Positions 25,155 through 29,757 of a stretch of DNA of 45,678 nucleotides are shown piece by piece. Both the position numbers and the translations under genes were made by a program. The stretch is from Candidatus Parcubacteria bacterium (lineage in GTDB: Bacteria > Patescibacteriota > Minisyncoccia > Phycocordibacterales > UBA918). The notes beneath the pieces were generated by a model. The model saw nothing but the letters and a program-made list of their open reading frames with translations. It was not told the origin of the DNA and did no database searches. The stretch covers positions 1 to 45,678 of the forward strand of contig JBJOPW010000008.1 of the NCBI GenBank assembly GCA_046050355.1, in the 5' to 3' direction. The first letter of the stretch is position 1. Each line of letters opens with the position of its first letter.

Positions 25155-25329
25155 GGGAGAGACCAGAGTCAGCAATCCGGCGTAAGTCGAGAACAATTAG
25201 CTACTGCGGAAAGCCACTTTCTACGGTGGCTTTCGTCTTTTAACGAGGGCAGGGGATGATTATATTGACAATACTGTGTTTAATGTCATTATTGCTGGTA
25301 AATCTGAACAAAAATATACGAGGTCTTTG

Positions 25330-25857
25330 ATGCCGAAGTTGTATCACTTGAAACCGGCCAAGCTGGCTGGGAATACGCTGTTGCCGCTCGCGGGGCTTCG
25401 AGACAAGTATCCGGAAGTCTACGTCAAGGCCCTGGAGAAGTACAAGGGTAGGGGAGAGGTACCGCTTAAGTTCATCCCCTTGCTTGATTGCTCGTGGGAA
25501 GACGTCATCTTCCTTAGTCCGGTGCATCCGCAGGTGCTCCATATGGAGCTCTCAGCCTGTGGCTACGACGGACTCATCGGGGCAGAGGCTTACGTCATCG
25601 ATGCGGAGAGCCTCATGCAACAGACTCCCGGCCGACTGCGTCTTGTGGTTTATGAATTCGCTGAAGATGGTCGGGATAGCTATTATCAAGCTGACGAGCA
25701 TCTGCGCTACGCGCGCATGAGTAATGTCACCCGCAGCCACTACCGGGACGCCGTCAGGGAGGGGCAGCGACCGTTTCTCTTCCATGGCGTCACCCACGTC
25801 ATGTACCACGGTGAAATCTGCGTCGATGGTCTACCCGTCGTCCGTGTGGCAGCATGA
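25330..25857 (+). CDS. Hypothetical protein
   Basis: TTGACA promoter, GAGG SD; LYH..P, L.PL..L, IP.LDC.W.DVIFLSP.HP, PFLF....HV. Confidence 0.75.
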   Translation: MPKLYHLKPAKLAGNTLLPLAGLRDKYPEVYVKALEKYKGRGEVPLKFIPLLDCSWEDVIFLSPVHPQVLHMELSACGYDGLIGAEAYVIDAESLMQQTPGRLRLVVYEFAEDGRDSYYQADEHLRYARMSNVTRSHYRDAVREGQRPFLFHGVTHVMYHGEICVDGLPVVRVAA

Positions 25858-25906
25858 AAGTAGCAAGAAAAACCCACCCCGGCCACTGACATGGCCGGGT
25901 TTGTCG

Positions 25907-26863
25907 TTATTTCTTGAGCGGATGGAACTCGCGGTGGGTGGTTTCGGCGTAACGATCGCTTGCATGCACATAGCGGGTGGTGGTCTCGAGTGACTCGTGG
26001 CCGAGGAGGACCTGGATAGCGGCGGGGTTTGCGCCTTGTTCAGCGAGGTAGGTGGCAAAGCCGTGACGGAGACTGTGTGCACTCGTTTTTATCGCCATCC
26101 CGAGGTATTCGCGATACCACTTTATCTTCATCTGCACGTAGTTGGGGGAGATGTGTTTCTTTTTGTTCGCAGCATTGAGACCACGTTCGGCCACAAAGAT
26201 AAACGGATTTTCGTCATCGCGAAGCTTCAGATACTCACGGATATAGCCCTCAGCGCGGGGAGTGAGGTAGATAAAGCGGCGCTTCCGACCTTTACCTTCA
26301 ACAAATATCTTGCCGGTGTGATCGAGCTGATTGATACGCAGCGAAATGAGTTCAGAGATACGCATGCCACTCGCAAACAGGGTCTCGAGCATGGCGCGGT
26401 TGCGCTTTTGCACAAACTCATCTTTTTCAATCGTAGTCGGACACTCAATCAGTTTGATCATCTCTTCGAACTCAGCAATCTGACCATGCTGTTTGCCCAT
26501 ACGCAGCAGCTTGATAGCCGTCGGGGGGACGGGGACTGGTTCGTCCATATCCATGAGGAAACTGAGGTAGCGGCGGAGTGACGTCAGGTGACGATTAATA
26601 GAGCCACTTTTGAGCTTCGTGTCTGATTCCTCACCCTGGGCTGTCTTGCGAGTGGGGGAGTTGAGGTAGGCCTTGTACTGCTCGATGGTCTTTTTCGTGA
26701 CTTTGTCAAAAGAGAGCCCCCCGAGCTCTTCCTCTAGAAAATGCGCAAAGGTATCAAGATCCCGCTCGTAGTTGTAGAGAGTCTCGTGTGAATAGTTGTT
26801 CGCTTGGATGTGCAGCAAAAAATCATCGATACTCGGCAGGTGATTGCTTTGTGGTCTAATCAT
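25907..26863 (-). CDS. Xer-family tyrosine recombinase
   Basis: SAM-like N-domain (T..NY..DL..F), SGMRISE, GKG.K.R, HSLRHGFAT, LLGH..L.TT.RY. Confidence 0.95.
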   Translation of the reverse strand: MIRPQSNHLPSIDDFLLHIQANNYSHETLYNYERDLDTFAHFLEEELGGLSFDKVTKKTIEQYKAYLNSPTRKTAQGEESDTKLKSGSINRHLTSLRRYLSFLMDMDEPVPVPPTAIKLLRMGKQHGQIAEFEEMIKLIECPTTIEKDEFVQKRNRAMLETLFASGMRISELISLRINQLDHTGKIFVEGKGRKRRFIYLTPRAEGYIREYLKLRDDENPFIFVAERGLNAANKKKHISPNYVQMKIKWYREYLGMAIKTSAHSLRHGFATYLAEQGANPAAIQVLLGHESLETTTRYVHASDRYAETTHREFHPLKK

Positions 26864-26913
26864 AAAACCATTATACAACGGCAGTGGGGCACCTCCCTTT
26901 AGGGCTGTTGATA

Positions 26914-26941
26914 ACTGAGTATAATAACTCTAATACTCAGT
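26914..26941. other. Candidate dif site (11-6-11)
   Basis: ACTGAGTATAA-TAACTC-TAATACTCAGT; arms 10/11 inverted; 50 bp upstream of the xer ATG at a gene-orientation switch. Confidence 0.6.
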
Positions 26942-27504
26942 ATTATATCTAAAATAAAGCTTATTTCGCCATAGGGCTGCTATTGCCCAATTCGGCCTTA
27001 ATTACCATTGTCTCTCTATACCCCTTCTCTTCCCTCATGTCTACAACATTTATCTTCTTTCCTTTTAATTTTGCCTTGGTTTATTTTTCTCTCGTTTTTT
27101 CTGTCCCAGGATTTTGGCAAATTTTCCACGTGATACTTGTATCACGTCAAAATGCCTCCGGAGCTCATTTTTGCCCTGGGCTCTCGCTCTGGTACATTTT
27201 TGACCTGATGTCTGTATCGTCTCAAATGTCCTGCGAAGCTCCTAGAGGCGTATACGCCCTCGTATGCGAGGCATTTAGGAGTCAATATATGCGGTCTATC
27301 ACCATAATCTTTTATTGGATTTATCCCAACTTGATCACCGTACTTTTTTGCGGTTTCAGCAAAATTGCAAAATCTGATTTTTAATCAAAATTATTACTCG
27401 CCGTGTTGAGCCGGTACGTGCCCTTGGCCACACAAAGCTTCTGAGCTGTGGCGGCGTACTATAAAAACTGCTCTGACTCCCCTGTTATCCTAATTATAAC
27501 ATAA

Positions 27505-28146
27505 TTACAAAATGTCAAGTAAGGCAGGGAAGTCACGAATGTCATCAATGATGTGGCGAGCAGCAGCTTGTACCTCTGGCTTGCACCACGAGAAGGTCAC
27601 CCCATTCCCTGTCAGTTGGAAAAGGGTAATGTCATTGGTGCTGTCTCCTATAGCGACGCAGTCTGTCAGGTCAATATTCCTTTTCTTGCAGTAGTCACGG
27701 AGGATGTTTGCCTTGGCTTCTCCTTCTTCCCCGCTACTGATGAAGTGATGAAAGTAACCGGCGTCGTCAAAAGCGATGTCAGATGTTGCAAACACCGCAT
27801 CAGCCTGCGTCATGCTACCTACGGCTTCGACCATCTCTCGAAAGCCGCCACTAATCAGTAAAATCACATGACCATGTGCCTTAAGTGTTTGTGTGGTTTC
27901 CAAAACGCCAGTACGTAACTCAAAATCAAGCAGTGTCTTTGTCGCGATGTCACGAGTGAGTAGATGTCGTTCTCGGTAGAGGTCTTCAAGCTGTTTGGTC
28001 CAGGTGTGGTAGTCATAGTCGCCCTGCATAAAGCCACTGTAGAGGGCAAAATCCTCGTCTGCGGTGATGCCGGCAGCAGCATTAAGTCGTTCCCAGCTGC
28101 CAGAGGTGGTGAGAGTGTCGTCGACATCGAAGATGATGGTTTTCAT
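27505..28146 (-). CDS. HAD-IB hydrolase (phosphoserine phosphatase-like)
   Basis: FDVDDTL, ISGG, K, GDSTND. Confidence 0.9.
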   Translation of the reverse strand: MKTIIFDVDDTLTTSGSWERLNAAAGITADEDFALYSGFMQGDYDYHTWTKQLEDLYRERHLLTRDIATKTLLDFELRTGVLETTQTLKAHGHVILLISGGFREMVEAVGSMTQADAVFATSDIAFDDAGYFHHFISSGEEGEAKANILRDYCKKRNIDLTDCVAIGDSTNDITLFQLTGNGVTFSWCKPEVQAAARHIIDDIRDFPALLDIL

Positions 28147-28176
28147 ACTGTGTCAGTATACGCAAAATCTATTTTC

Positions 28177-28401
28177 TTGACAAAAATCAACCTCGTGATT
28201 AGATAGATTTATGAAAGACATATTCCGTCAGTCATATACCTGGAAGCAACTCGCCGATTATGGGCGTAAGGCTTTTCCTATGGTCATTTGTGATCATAAG
28301 AACCTGGTATATAGCCGCGGAATTTGTATGTTTGTATAGATAACTCTTTATCTCACTATAGAAACCCCTCGGCTGTGATACCAGAGCCTGAAGGGGTTTT
28401 T
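28177..28401 (+). promoter_or_regulatory. Promoter, structured leader with 42-aa uORF (28211-28339) and attenuator-like terminator (28362-28401)
   Basis: TTGACA-17-TAGATA; nested stems; AAACCCCT/AGGGGTTT followed by T-run before the MFS gene. Confidence 0.6.
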
Positions 28402-28472
28402 GTATCACTGCACACATTACAAGTCTAAAACCTGTGCGTATGCACACACAAGCAGAAGAAGGAGTTCTTCCC

Positions 28473-29669
28473 ATGACGCTACAACAGCGCAGAACAGTTC
28501 TTTTATATCAGCTCTATATGGTGGTAAGTGAGCCGCTCTTTTGGGGTCCCATAGTGATCTACTCACTGTTGACCTTGGCCCATATGTCGCTGCCTGAAAT
28601 CTTTTTCATGGAGGCGATAGTGATGATGGTCTTGGTGCTGAGTAACGTACCTGCCGGAGCTCTGGCCGACGTCATTGGTAAAAAGCGTGCAGTGCTGATA
28701 GGGCGTTTTCTTCTCCTTGTCAGTATTATCTGCTTTGCTACGATGACCAGCCCGCTACTCGCCTGGATTGGTAACTTGGCTTGGGCGTTTGGTTTTGCTC
28801 TGACGTCCGGATCCGAAAGCTCGCTCCTCTTTGAGACGCTCAGGAACGGGAGTGGGACAAGGAGGTTCAAAGAAGTGCAAGGCAAAGCTATCGGCTACCG
28901 ATTTCTGGTAATGGCACTCTCTTGTCTACTCGTTGGTGTGCTAGCAGCAGTGCATCCACGACTTCCCCTTTACCTGTCGATACCGGGTCAAGTGCTGGCG
29001 TTTCTCCTAGTCATAGGAATGACCGAACCTGGAACGACAACAACCTTCTCCGGGAAGGCACAATGGCGAGCAATGAAAGATGGACTACGTTTTGTCAGAA
29101 AGACACCTGTAGTCCTCTGGATGGTTCTCTTTGCGGCACTGGTTGGGGTGATCTCAAAAGTATGGTTCTTCACTTACAATCCATACTTCGAGCTCGTCGG
29201 TATGCCTGTCTCTCAGTACGGATTTGTCTTCTTCTTGCTCAATATCGTGGCTTGGTTATCCAGTCACTATGCATACAAGATTGAGACGGTCATGAGTGAG
29301 TTTGGACTCGTAGTCTTTTCGATTGCTTGTCTCTCAGTACCGATACTACTCATGGCACTATTTCCCGTCTACTGGGCGGCGTATCTGGTCTTGGCACAAA
29401 ACATCGTGCGAGGCTTCATCAGACCCTTTACCGAGGATTTTGTACACCACCATATCAGGGATGCAGAAGCAGAGGCGGCGCGAGCGACTATTATGTCTGT
29501 AAAGAGTGCGGTGTCGCAGTTTGCGATGGTGTGTGGACTCTTCGGAGCAAGCTTTGCTCTTGAGTACTTCCCACTCATCTCGGTGTTACTTGGCCTCGGT
29601 GTTATTGCGAGCACCCTCGGAGTTGTAGCAATCCTTAGTTATAAGCGTGTAGTGAGAGTTACTCTCTAG
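28473..29669 (+). CDS. MFS transporter
   Basis: About 12 TM; VPAGALADVIGKK motif A; SGSESSLLFETL. Confidence 0.92.
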   Translation: MTLQQRRTVLLYQLYMVVSEPLFWGPIVIYSLLTLAHMSLPEIFFMEAIVMMVLVLSNVPAGALADVIGKKRAVLIGRFLLLVSIICFATMTSPLLAWIGNLAWAFGFALTSGSESSLLFETLRNGSGTRRFKEVQGKAIGYRFLVMALSCLLVGVLAAVHPRLPLYLSIPGQVLAFLLVIGMTEPGTTTTFSGKAQWRAMKDGLRFVRKTPVVLWMVLFAALVGVISKVWFFTYNPYFELVGMPVSQYGFVFFLLNIVAWLSSHYAYKIETVMSEFGLVVFSIACLSVPILLMALFPVYWAAYLVLAQNIVRGFIRPFTEDFVHHHIRDAEAEAARATIMSVKSAVSQFAMVCGLFGASFALEYFPLISVLLGLGVIASTLGVVAILSYKRVVRVTL

Positions 29670-29707
29670 TCTCACAATTCCACTACCTATGGCCAAAGAA
29701 ATACTAT

Positions 29708-29738
29708 AAACCCCGATCATCACTGATGGTCGGGGTTT
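29708..29738. terminator. Bidirectional terminator
   Basis: AAACCCCGATCATC-ACT-GATGGTCGGGGTTT between convergent genes. Confidence 0.8.
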
Positions 29739-29757
29739 GCTCTTGTTTGCTGAAAAA

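What the first reader, a model, noticed from the sequence alone, without database searches (positions are those of the whole stretch)
25907..26941. Xer recombinase with adjacent near-symmetric dif-like site at the apparent replication terminus
Seen: 28-bp ACTGAGTATAA-TAACTC-TAATACTCAGT 50 bp upstream of the xer ATG. Most genes to the left are + and nearly all to the right are -. By eye the + strand turns from G-rich to C/T-rich here. Known: dif is 11-6-11, and single-recombinase systems exist (XerS with difSL just upstream of the gene, XerH, XerA). Inference: a one-protein Xer/dif module with an atypical dif sequence, possibly autoregulatory.
Basis: partly seen in the sequence, partly recalled or inferred. 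Interest (0 to 1): 0.7.

Follow-up and report, generated by a model that had tools for sequence, protein, structure and literature searches.

The report
Single Xer recombinase with adjacent dif
A tiny candidate-phyla bacterium carries one Xer recombinase gene with a conserved, once-per-genome 28-base site just upstream, at the point where gene direction converges, so it is most likely a self-contained unit that separates joined daughter chromosomes.

Summary
The motif is real. ACTGAGTATAA-TAACTC-TAATACTCAGT lies at 26914-26941, 50 nt upstream of the ATG (26863) of a minus-strand tyrosine recombinase gene, and chance expects 0.03 such matches per window. The genome is 0.94 Mb and 99.97% complete. 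Homologues are named Parcubacteria/Paceibacteria. It has one Xer-like gene plus one P4-type integrase, RecA, and an FtsK with alpha, beta and gamma domains. The protein scores below the NCBIfam cut-offs for XerC, XerD, XerA and XerS. The 28-mer occurs once per genome in 29 of 101 genomes of the genus. It lies directly upstream of the orthologous xer in 28 of 28 assessable loci, while the flanks diverge. Related sites accompany 52-62%-identical xer genes in other families of the class. In 16 of 16 genomes examined the locus sits where gene orientation converges, and in 12 of 16 GC skew changes sign there, within 2 kb in a single-contig genome. In this genome (scaffolded on a relative) and its closest relative the cumulative skew peak lies 90-120 kb further on. 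Verdict: a single-recombinase Xer/dif module of a distinct lineage. Module supported, terminus claim partly, autoregulation untested.

The parts
25907..26863 (-). xer: single Xer-family tyrosine recombinase gene (318 aa from ATG 26863; the ORF list extends it to TTG 26878)
   Evidence: ORF. Pfam Phage_integrase 2.2e-31 and Phage_int_SAM_1 1.5e-10. NCBIfam XerC 185.9, XerD 180.8, XerA 165.1 and XerS 95.8 bits, all below cut-off. Catalytic R173, K199, H268, R271, H294, Y303 (numbered from the TTG) align with XerA 4a8e and are invariant in 22 homologues.
26914..26941 (.). dif-like 28-bp site. Arms 26914-26924 and 26931-26941, central 6 bp 26925-26930; alternatively 9-10-9 with perfect arms.
   Evidence: One copy per genome in 29 of 101 genus genomes. 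Directly upstream of xer in 28 of 28 assessable loci. Columns not fixed by the search pattern (1, 10-12, 17-19, 28, 29) are invariant in 29 of 29; variation is concentrated at central position 15 and outer positions 2 and 27.
26870..26875 (-). TATAAT box 6 nt upstream of the xer ATG: likely -10 element, which would give a leaderless xer mRNA (inference)
   Evidence: Read. A TATAAT-like box between site and start codon recurs in many orthologous loci. The consensus scan did not list it because there is no -35.
26942..26947 (-). second TATAAT (xer sense) abutting the distal arm of the site; a further TATAAT lies inside the site on the + strand (26920-26925)
   Evidence: Read. The flank is ATATAAT in most close relatives but not all; flank columns are conserved in at most 24 of 29.
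25878..25899 (.). G+C-rich hairpin between the converging ends of xer and the + strand ORF 25276-25857: terminator-like on both strands
26948..27504 (.). about 560 bp with no convincing gene between the site and the HAD hydrolase gene. It holds inverted repeats and blocks shared with the closest relatives only. Its relation to the module is unknown.
   Evidence: ORF 26983-27384 has no Pfam hit; blocks shared by G000, G007, G041, G047; no Rfam family.

Best explanation
The 28-bp element is the dif site of a single-recombinase chromosome-dimer resolution module, and the gene beside it encodes its recombinase. Shown: the element's anatomy, its copy number, its linkage to xer and its position. Inferred, by analogy with XerS/difSL, XerH/difH and XerA/dif: the recombinase binds both near-identical 11-bp arms and four subunits synapse the two copies present on a RecA-generated chromosome dimer. 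They then exchange strands at the borders of the 6-bp centre through Tyr303. The genome also encodes FtsK with a gamma domain, and skewed G-rich octamers and gene orientation converge on the site. Resolution is therefore probably directed, and perhaps activated, by FtsK at the septum. TATAAT boxes abut the site, so bound Xer may also damp its own promoter; that is speculative.
For: (1) Recombinase: it has both domains and all six catalytic residues. It is the only Xer-like gene in a 99.97%-complete genome; the second PF00589 hit is a 403-aa P4-type integrase on contig C4. (2) Site: 11-6-11 geometry with arms matching 10 of 11. There is no second copy or half-site in the genome. (3) Conservation: 8 of 8 loci found by protein search alone carry the site upstream while the flanks are unalignable. 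There is one copy in each of 29 of 101 genus genomes, against 1 of 101 for the reversed control. 28 of 28 assessable loci have xer adjacent in the same orientation. Variation falls in the central 6 bp and the outermost arm positions. (4) Spread: related sites lie beside xer genes 52-59% identical in six other families. 30 of 400 other class genomes have this Xer type at 56-62% identity, mostly as the only Xer hit. (5) Position: gene orientation converges at the locus in 16 of 16 genomes. Skew is higher on the left than on the right in 16 of 16, and it changes sign in 12 of 16. In single-contig G427 the sign change is within 2 kb of the site, 44% of the genome from dnaA. In G007, octamers chosen outside the 250-450 kb zone reach their cumulative maximum at 277,756 (top 30) and 279,428 (top 100); the site is at 276,867. 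(6) Both flanks are syntenic core genes (M23 peptidase, gltX, murG, ftsW) in four relatives. (7) The partners exist: RecA, and FtsK with alpha, beta and gamma domains. (8) Another Xer lineage in the same genus has its own single-copy 11-6-11 site beside its gene, with exact arms in 13 of 101 genomes (12 also share the spacer CATATA) and none of these carrying the first site. In G016 it lies at the same locus and at the skew switch.
Against: No recombination, binding or cleavage has been observed; everything is comparative. The cumulative GC-skew peak is not at the site in this genome or its closest relative. It is about 90 kb away (9.6% of the genome) in G000 scaffolded on G007 and about 115 kb away in G007. 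There, a 120-kb zone to the right of the site has near-zero skew and intermediate word polarity. In 4 of 16 genomes the skew does not change sign at the locus. The position evidence applies equally to the xer gene, so it cannot by itself separate 'dif' from 'xer operator'. The word-polarity switch is confounded with gene orientation. In some other families the second arm is weak (4-6 of 9 pairs), and in 2 of 16 genomes my scan found no convincing site. The protein fails every named Xer equivalog cut-off.
Confidence: 0.75

Rival explanations
1. The palindrome is only an operator or promoter element through which the recombinase or another regulator controls xer transcription. The true recombination site, if any, lies elsewhere, for example near the skew peak.
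For: The site sits 50 nt from the ATG and is flanked by TATAAT boxes. The skew peak is 90-115 kb away in G000 and G007. Near-palindromes are typical operators.
Against: This does not explain why xer itself is held at the convergence point in 16 of 16 genomes from many families, nor the 11-6-11 geometry with variation confined to the 6-bp centre. No other copy or related site exists in the genome. The site is inverted relative to xer between lineages: 6 versus 8 of the 14 genomes with a recognisable site. That fits a self-contained site better than a promoter part.
Confidence: 0.1
2. The element acts as RNA: a 9-bp hairpin in the 5' leader of xer, or of a divergent transcript.
For: The predicted hairpin is -11.6 kcal/mol with z -2.9 (xer sense) and -10.9 kcal/mol with z -3.3 (other strand). 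One locus (L124) changed both partners of pair 2-27, and five changed one side to a G-U-compatible base.
Against: The 10-nt 'loop' is as conserved as the stem. There is no run of T after the hairpin, and the terminator scan does not list it. The orientation relative to xer differs between lineages, and the pairing decays to 4-6 of 9 in other families while one arm plus the centre stay conserved. No Rfam family matches. The proximal TATAAT at 26870-26875 would leave the site outside the xer transcript.
Confidence: 0.04
3. The gene and site are an integrase and an attachment-site remnant of an integrated mobile element.
For: The genes next to the site on the non-xer side (HAD hydrolase, MFS transporter, 27505-29669) are absent from the same place in four relatives. 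The Xer type is patchy within the genus, in 29-30 of 101 genomes.
Against: There is no second copy or half-site anywhere and no phage or plasmid genes nearby. Both flanks are syntenic core genes. There is one copy per genome at the same chromosomal landmark across families.
Confidence: 0.04

Closest known systems
XerS/difSL of streptococci and lactococci
   Same: One recombinase. The gene lies immediately beside its site 'as a single module' at the terminus, and the system depends on FtsK (review PMC5357621 and PMC2958812, passages read). Here: a single Xer, the site 50 nt upstream, and FtsK with a gamma domain present.
   Different: The protein scores 95.8 bits against a 267-bit cut-off on the XerS model. 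The site is 28 bp with a 6-bp centre and near-identical arms, not 31 bp with an 11-bp centre and unequal arms (for difSL).
XerA/dif of archaea
   Same: A single recombinase acting on a 28-bp 11-6-11 site whose arms show few or no mismatches; in Crenarchaeota the site lies close to xerA (PMC2958812). The best solved relative by sequence is P. abyssi XerA, 4a8e, E 1.8e-21.
   Different: It scores 165.1 bits against a cut-off of 220 on the XerA model, whereas the other Xer type of this genus passes it (242-246 bits). Archaea lack FtsK; this genome has it.
XerC/XerD-dif of most bacteria
   Same: The same protein family and catalytic residues, the same 11-6-11 plan, one site per chromosome in the terminus region, and FtsK with a gamma domain.
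   Different: One recombinase, not two. The scores are nearly equal on the XerC and XerD models and far below both cut-offs. The arms are symmetric over all 11 positions but one. The gene is linked to the site.
XerH/difH (Helicobacter, Campylobacter) and XerL/dif (Legionellales)
   Same: Single-recombinase systems with lineage-specific sites near the terminus (passages; abstract of 10.1101/2021.09.12.459815).
   Different: The match to XerH 5jjv (4.8e-13) is weaker than to XerA or XerD. The difH arms and centre differ. No sequence comparison with XerL was made.

Membership tests
Xer-type tyrosine recombinase (superfamily level) | N-terminal SAM-like core-binding domain plus C-terminal catalytic domain with R-K-H-R-H/W-Y | tested here: met
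   Pfam PF02899 and PF00589. R173, K199, H268, R271, H294, Y303 align with XerA 4a8e and are invariant in alignment A1.
XerC (TIGR02224) / XerD (TIGR02225) equivalogs | Score at or above the curated cut-off | tested here: not met
   185.9 against 335.15 and 180.8 against 329.6 bits.
XerC/XerD system | Two paralogous recombinases in the genome | tested here: not met
   There are two PF00589 hits; one is a 403-aa P4-type integrase. The protein search finds one Xer in G000.
XerS (NF003462) | Score at or above the cut-off | tested here: not met
   95.8 against 267 bits.
XerS/difSL | The recombinase gene lies immediately beside its site | tested here: met
   50 nt apart here; adjacent in 28 of 28 assessable loci.
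XerS/difSL | 31-bp site with an 11-bp central region and unequal arms | tested here: not met
   28 bp, 11-6-11 or 9-10-9. The difSL description comes from PMC5357621.
XerA, archaeal (NF040815) | Score at or above the cut-off | tested here: not met
   165.1 against 220 bits. Five Xer genes of the other type from this genus and order score 236.5-246.2.
dif site | Two 11-bp inverted arms around a spacer of about 6 bp | tested here: met
   Arms match 10 of 11 with a 6-bp spacer.
dif site | One copy per chromosome | tested here: met
   One copy in G000 and one in each of 29 genus genomes.
dif site | Located at the replication terminus (GC-skew shift point, convergence of polarity) | tested here: inconclusive
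   Orientation converges in 16 of 16 genomes and skew changes sign in 12 of 16, within 2 kb in G427. The cumulative skew peak is 90 kb away in scaffolded G000 and about 115 kb away in G007.
dif site | Bound, cleaved and recombined by the cognate Xer; dimer resolution | not testable with these tools
   Needs EMSA, suicide-substrate cleavage and plasmid-resolution assays.
FtsK-dependent Xer systems | FtsK with a gamma domain present, and polar words converging on the site | tested here: met
   FtsK_alpha, FtsK_SpoIIIE and FtsK_gamma domains. In G007 the cumulative maximum of skewed octamers is 0.9-2.6 kb from the site for the top 30 and top 100 words, and 12.9 kb for the top 10. This is confounded with gene orientation. 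Activation of Xer by FtsK itself was not tested.
Integrase with att site of a mobile element / IMEX | A second (partial) site bounding the inserted DNA, and mobile-element genes | tested here: not met
   No half-site matching at least 9 of 11 in 26942-29757, and the next best 28-mer in the genome matches 20 of 28. The neighbours are core or metabolic genes.

The most novel reading that the evidence does not exclude
Paceibacteria resolve chromosome dimers with portable xer-dif cassettes. At least two Xer lineages, only 30-35% identical, each have their own single-copy 28-bp 11-6-11 site abutting the gene's promoter region. They occupy the same terminus locus (beside M23 peptidase-gltX-murG) in species of one genus. 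This implies that the recombinase and its site are exchanged as a unit, and that the site doubles as an autoregulatory operator which makes the cassette self-sufficient. In the G000/G007 subclade the site also marks the edge of a roughly 120-kb zone replicated from either side, rather than the fork-meeting point.
Probability: 0.3. Interest if true: 0.7.

Novelty: new variant of a known kind. Interest (0 to 1): 0.55.

Why it matters
Single-recombinase Xer/dif systems are known from streptococci (XerS), epsilon-proteobacteria (XerH), archaea (XerA) and Legionellales (XerL). Three searches of the held library listed no paper that describes a Xer/dif system in Patescibacteria, Parcubacteria or the Candidate Phyla Radiation. 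The one listed paper that holds both a CPR term and xerC/xerD (PMC7159879, seen in the search listing only) is on another subject. These organisms are uncultivated and have minimal genomes. A defined 28-bp site with a single 318-aa recombinase gives a terminus landmark for scaffolding and replication analysis of such genomes. It is also a compact recombination system that can be tested in E. coli. The presence of two different recombinase/site pairs at the same locus in one genus offers a natural case of co-replacement of a recombinase and its target. If the reading is wrong, the element is still a strongly conserved regulatory site of xer.

Tried and rejected
Chance palindrome: rejected.

Rfam families: none at gathering score over the window. 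Over 26850-27550 there was only a meaningless miRNA hit with E 0.73. No tRNA or tmRNA in the window.

Intrinsic terminator at the site: not listed by the scan.

IMEX or second site: none. The weak second matches (G000:C16, G046, G022, G096:C15 and many 1-mismatch hits in the class) are at the level of the reversed-pattern controls, so I treated them as chance.

Site orientation relative to the chromosome: I first thought the asymmetry of the site's centre might be fixed relative to the chromosome axis. I dropped this because a convergence point is symmetric under reverse complement. Only the orientation relative to xer is defined, and it differs between lineages.

Complex prediction of the Xer catalytic domain (residues 125-323, alignment A1) with the FtsK gamma region (residues 695-785): no verdict (score 0.00). 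It counts neither for nor against binding.

Comparison with E. coli dif: I fetched NC_000913.3 1588000-1593000, using an accession and coordinates recalled from memory. No dif feature is annotated there, and no convincing 11-6-11 site lies in the intergenic stretch I scanned. No scored comparison with canonical dif was therefore made, and the word 'atypical' rests on recall.

A canonical dif elsewhere in G000 was not searched for, because I had no tool-derived consensus.

The motif TTGTGCGAC beside the other Xer type is at chance level in G000 and G007 (11 and 6 copies; reversed controls 5-6), so it is not a general promoter motif of these genomes.

Supplementary files of papers were not opened. 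Figures S3-S7 of PMC2958812 and the additional files of PMC3025954 may hold site alignments that bear on how atypical this site is.

Full report
**What is there.** The window is the whole contig C8 of a 939,894-base, 17-contig genome that is 99.97% complete. Sources name homologues of the gene as Candidatus Parcubacteria/Paceibacteria proteins.

A minus-strand ORF at 25907-26878 encodes a tyrosine recombinase with the SAM-like and catalytic domains. The likely start is the ATG at 26863 (318 aa), because the protein atlas record begins at that residue.

The 28-mer ACTGAGTATAA-TAACTC-TAATACTCAGT lies at 26914-26941, with 50 nt between it and that ATG. It has perfect 9-nt arms 10 nt apart. Read as 11-6-11, the arms match 10 of 11. 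A pattern search with up to 3 mismatches finds one match in the window against 0.03 expected. The genome holds no second copy; the next best 28-mer matches 20 of 28.

**The protein.** It scores 185.9 bits on the XerC model, 180.8 on XerD, 165.1 on archaeal XerA and 95.8 on XerS. All are below the curated cut-offs of 335, 330, 220 and 267. The best solved relatives by sequence are XerA of P. abyssi (1.8e-21) and XerD.

R173, K199, H268, R271, H294 and Y303 (numbered from the TTG) align with the catalytic residues and are invariant in 22 homologues. The genome has only one other PF00589 hit, a 403-aa P4-type integrase on contig C4. RecA is present, and so is an FtsK with alpha, motor and gamma domains.

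**Conservation of the site.**
- A protein search of 41 genomes found orthologues 64-91% identical in 7 genomes of the genus. All 8 loci, including the window's own, carry the site upstream while the surrounding DNA cannot be aligned.
- An exact 7-10-7 core pattern occurs once in each of 29 of 101 genus genomes. The reversed control occurs in 1 of 101.
- One more genome, G103, carries the site with one change in the core.
- In 28 of the 29 loci xer lies directly downstream in the same orientation. The 29th is cut by a contig end.
- Columns not fixed by the pattern are invariant (positions 1, 10-12, 17-19, 28, 29). Variation sits at central position 15 (A or T) and at outer positions 2 and 27. 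Flank columns are conserved in at most 24 of 29.

**Beyond the genus.**
- Related sites lie beside xer genes 52-59% identical in families f71, f92, f72, f27, f78 and f106. In G139 the site is 1.4 kb from xer, with another recombinase-like ORF between them.
- Of 401 genomes of the class that are at least 90% complete, 384 have a Xer-like hit, mostly a single one. Thirty besides G000 have this type at 56-62% identity.

**Position.**
- Both flanks are core genes. On the right are M23 peptidase, gltX, murG and ftsW, all on the minus strand. The arrangement is syntenic in G007, G018, G062 and, in part, G069.
- In 16 genomes from several families the locus lies where plus-strand genes on the left (63-97% of coding bases) meet minus-strand genes on the right (2-42% plus). 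This holds in 16 of 16. GC skew is higher on the left in 16 of 16 and changes sign in 12 of 16.
- In the single-contig genome G427 (923,469 bases, dnaA at 484,676) the site is at 891,238. Skew goes from +0.069 to -0.071 between the 2-kb bins on either side.

**Where the terminus claim fails for this genome.**
- Inside the window the skew stays positive.
- In G007 (two contigs, fetched whole) the origin is at C2 near 155 kb and the site at C1:276,867, which is 40.5% of the way round. The cumulative skew peak is at about 390-400 kb. The zone 280-400 kb has minus-strand genes but near-zero skew. Separating codon-position effects gives a replication term there about half that of the left arm.
- G000 is collinear with G007. 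In that inferred order the skew minimum is next to dnaA, the site is at 40.7% and the peak at 50.3%, about 90 kb from the site on contig C1.
- Octamers chosen for strand bias outside the 250-450 kb zone of G007 reach their cumulative maximum at 277,756 (top 30) and 279,428 (top 100). The top 10 peak at 289,771. Much of this follows gene orientation, and the zone to the right of the site is intermediate.
- In this subclade, then, the site marks the switch of gene and word polarity and the start of a broad weak-skew zone, not the skew peak.

**A second module in the same genus.** Most other genomes of the genus and order have a Xer only 30-35% identical, and these pass the XerA model cut-off.
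- In G016 and G004 this gene lies about 4 kb from murG, which is the same locus. In G016 that is where gene orientation and skew switch; in G004 orientation switches but the skew is irregular. In three other genomes (G006, G019, G021) it is on another contig or far from murG.
- A different 11-6-11 site, TTCGTTTTA-CATATA-TTGTGCGAA, lies beside it. Its arms occur exactly once in 13 of 101 genus genomes, 12 of them with the spacer CATATA, and one more genome carries it with two changes. None of these carries the first site.
- Each Xer lineage thus travels with its own site.

**Rivals.**
- Operator only. This is not excluded, but it does not explain why xer is held at the convergence point or why the site has dif geometry.
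- RNA hairpin. This is unlikely. The loop is as conserved as the stem. The site is inverted relative to xer in 8 of the 14 genomes with a recognisable site, compared with the other 6. The pairing decays in other families.
- Mobile-element remnant. This is unlikely.

**Literature.**
- Passages read: the review PMC5357621, PMC2958812 and PMC3025954.
- Outline and abstract read: the XerL preprint 10.1101/2021.09.12.459815.
- Three searches listed no paper describing Xer/dif in Patescibacteria, Parcubacteria or the Candidate Phyla Radiation.

**Verdict.** This is a single-recombinase Xer/dif module of a distinct Xer lineage. It is organised like XerS/difSL, with the gene next to the site, and its site is built like classical or archaeal dif. 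The module is well supported computationally. The terminus claim is partly supported. Autoregulation and FtsK dependence are inferred only.

Noticed in passing
window 26948-27504: About 560 bp without a convincing gene, holding inverted repeats (for example 27132-27152 / 27198-27218). Blocks and a TTGACA...TATAAT-like motif are shared only with the closest relatives (G007, G041, G047). No Rfam family matches. It could be an unknown RNA or a protein-binding array next to the site.
   Followed up: partly
window 27505-29669: A HAD hydrolase gene (minus strand) and an MFS-like transporter gene (plus strand) lie between the site and the M23 peptidase gene. They are missing at this place in G007, G018, G062 and G069, so the DNA next to the site on the non-xer side is variable. 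No repeat of the site bounds them.
   Followed up: partly
L030, L031, G016:C1:168699-168722 and other loci of the second Xer type: The other Xer lineage of the genus has its own single-copy site, TTCGTTTTA-CATATA-TTGTGCGAA, with exact arms in 13 of 101 genomes. Further loci of the order carry a shared ATATTGTGCGACA-like motif in either orientation at or just before the xer start.
   Followed up: partly
G007:C1:280000-440000; G000 contig C1: A zone of 120-150 kb to the right of the site has minus-strand genes but near-zero GC skew and intermediate word polarity. The replichores measured from the skew minimum to the site are 40.5% / 59.5% in G007 and 40.7% / 59.3% in scaffolded G000. It could be a broad or shifted fork-meeting zone.
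   Followed up: partly
L002:769-1980 (G000:C4:33549-34760): A 403-aa P4-type integrase gene on contig C4, in a stretch of higher G+C. It may mark an integrated element and is the only other tyrosine recombinase in the genome.
   Followed up: no
G139:C6:10769-11446: In one genome of another family a second recombinase-like ORF (27% identical, 277 aa) sits between xer and the site, which are 1.4 kb apart there.
   Followed up: no
family f43 genomes (e.g. G175:C1:74513-75148): A third Xer form matches residues 8-220 at 41-48% identity, in ORFs of 352-380 aa, with two matches per genome.
   Followed up: no
G000:C2:103797-106307: recA and ftsK are neighbours on contig C2.
   Followed up: no
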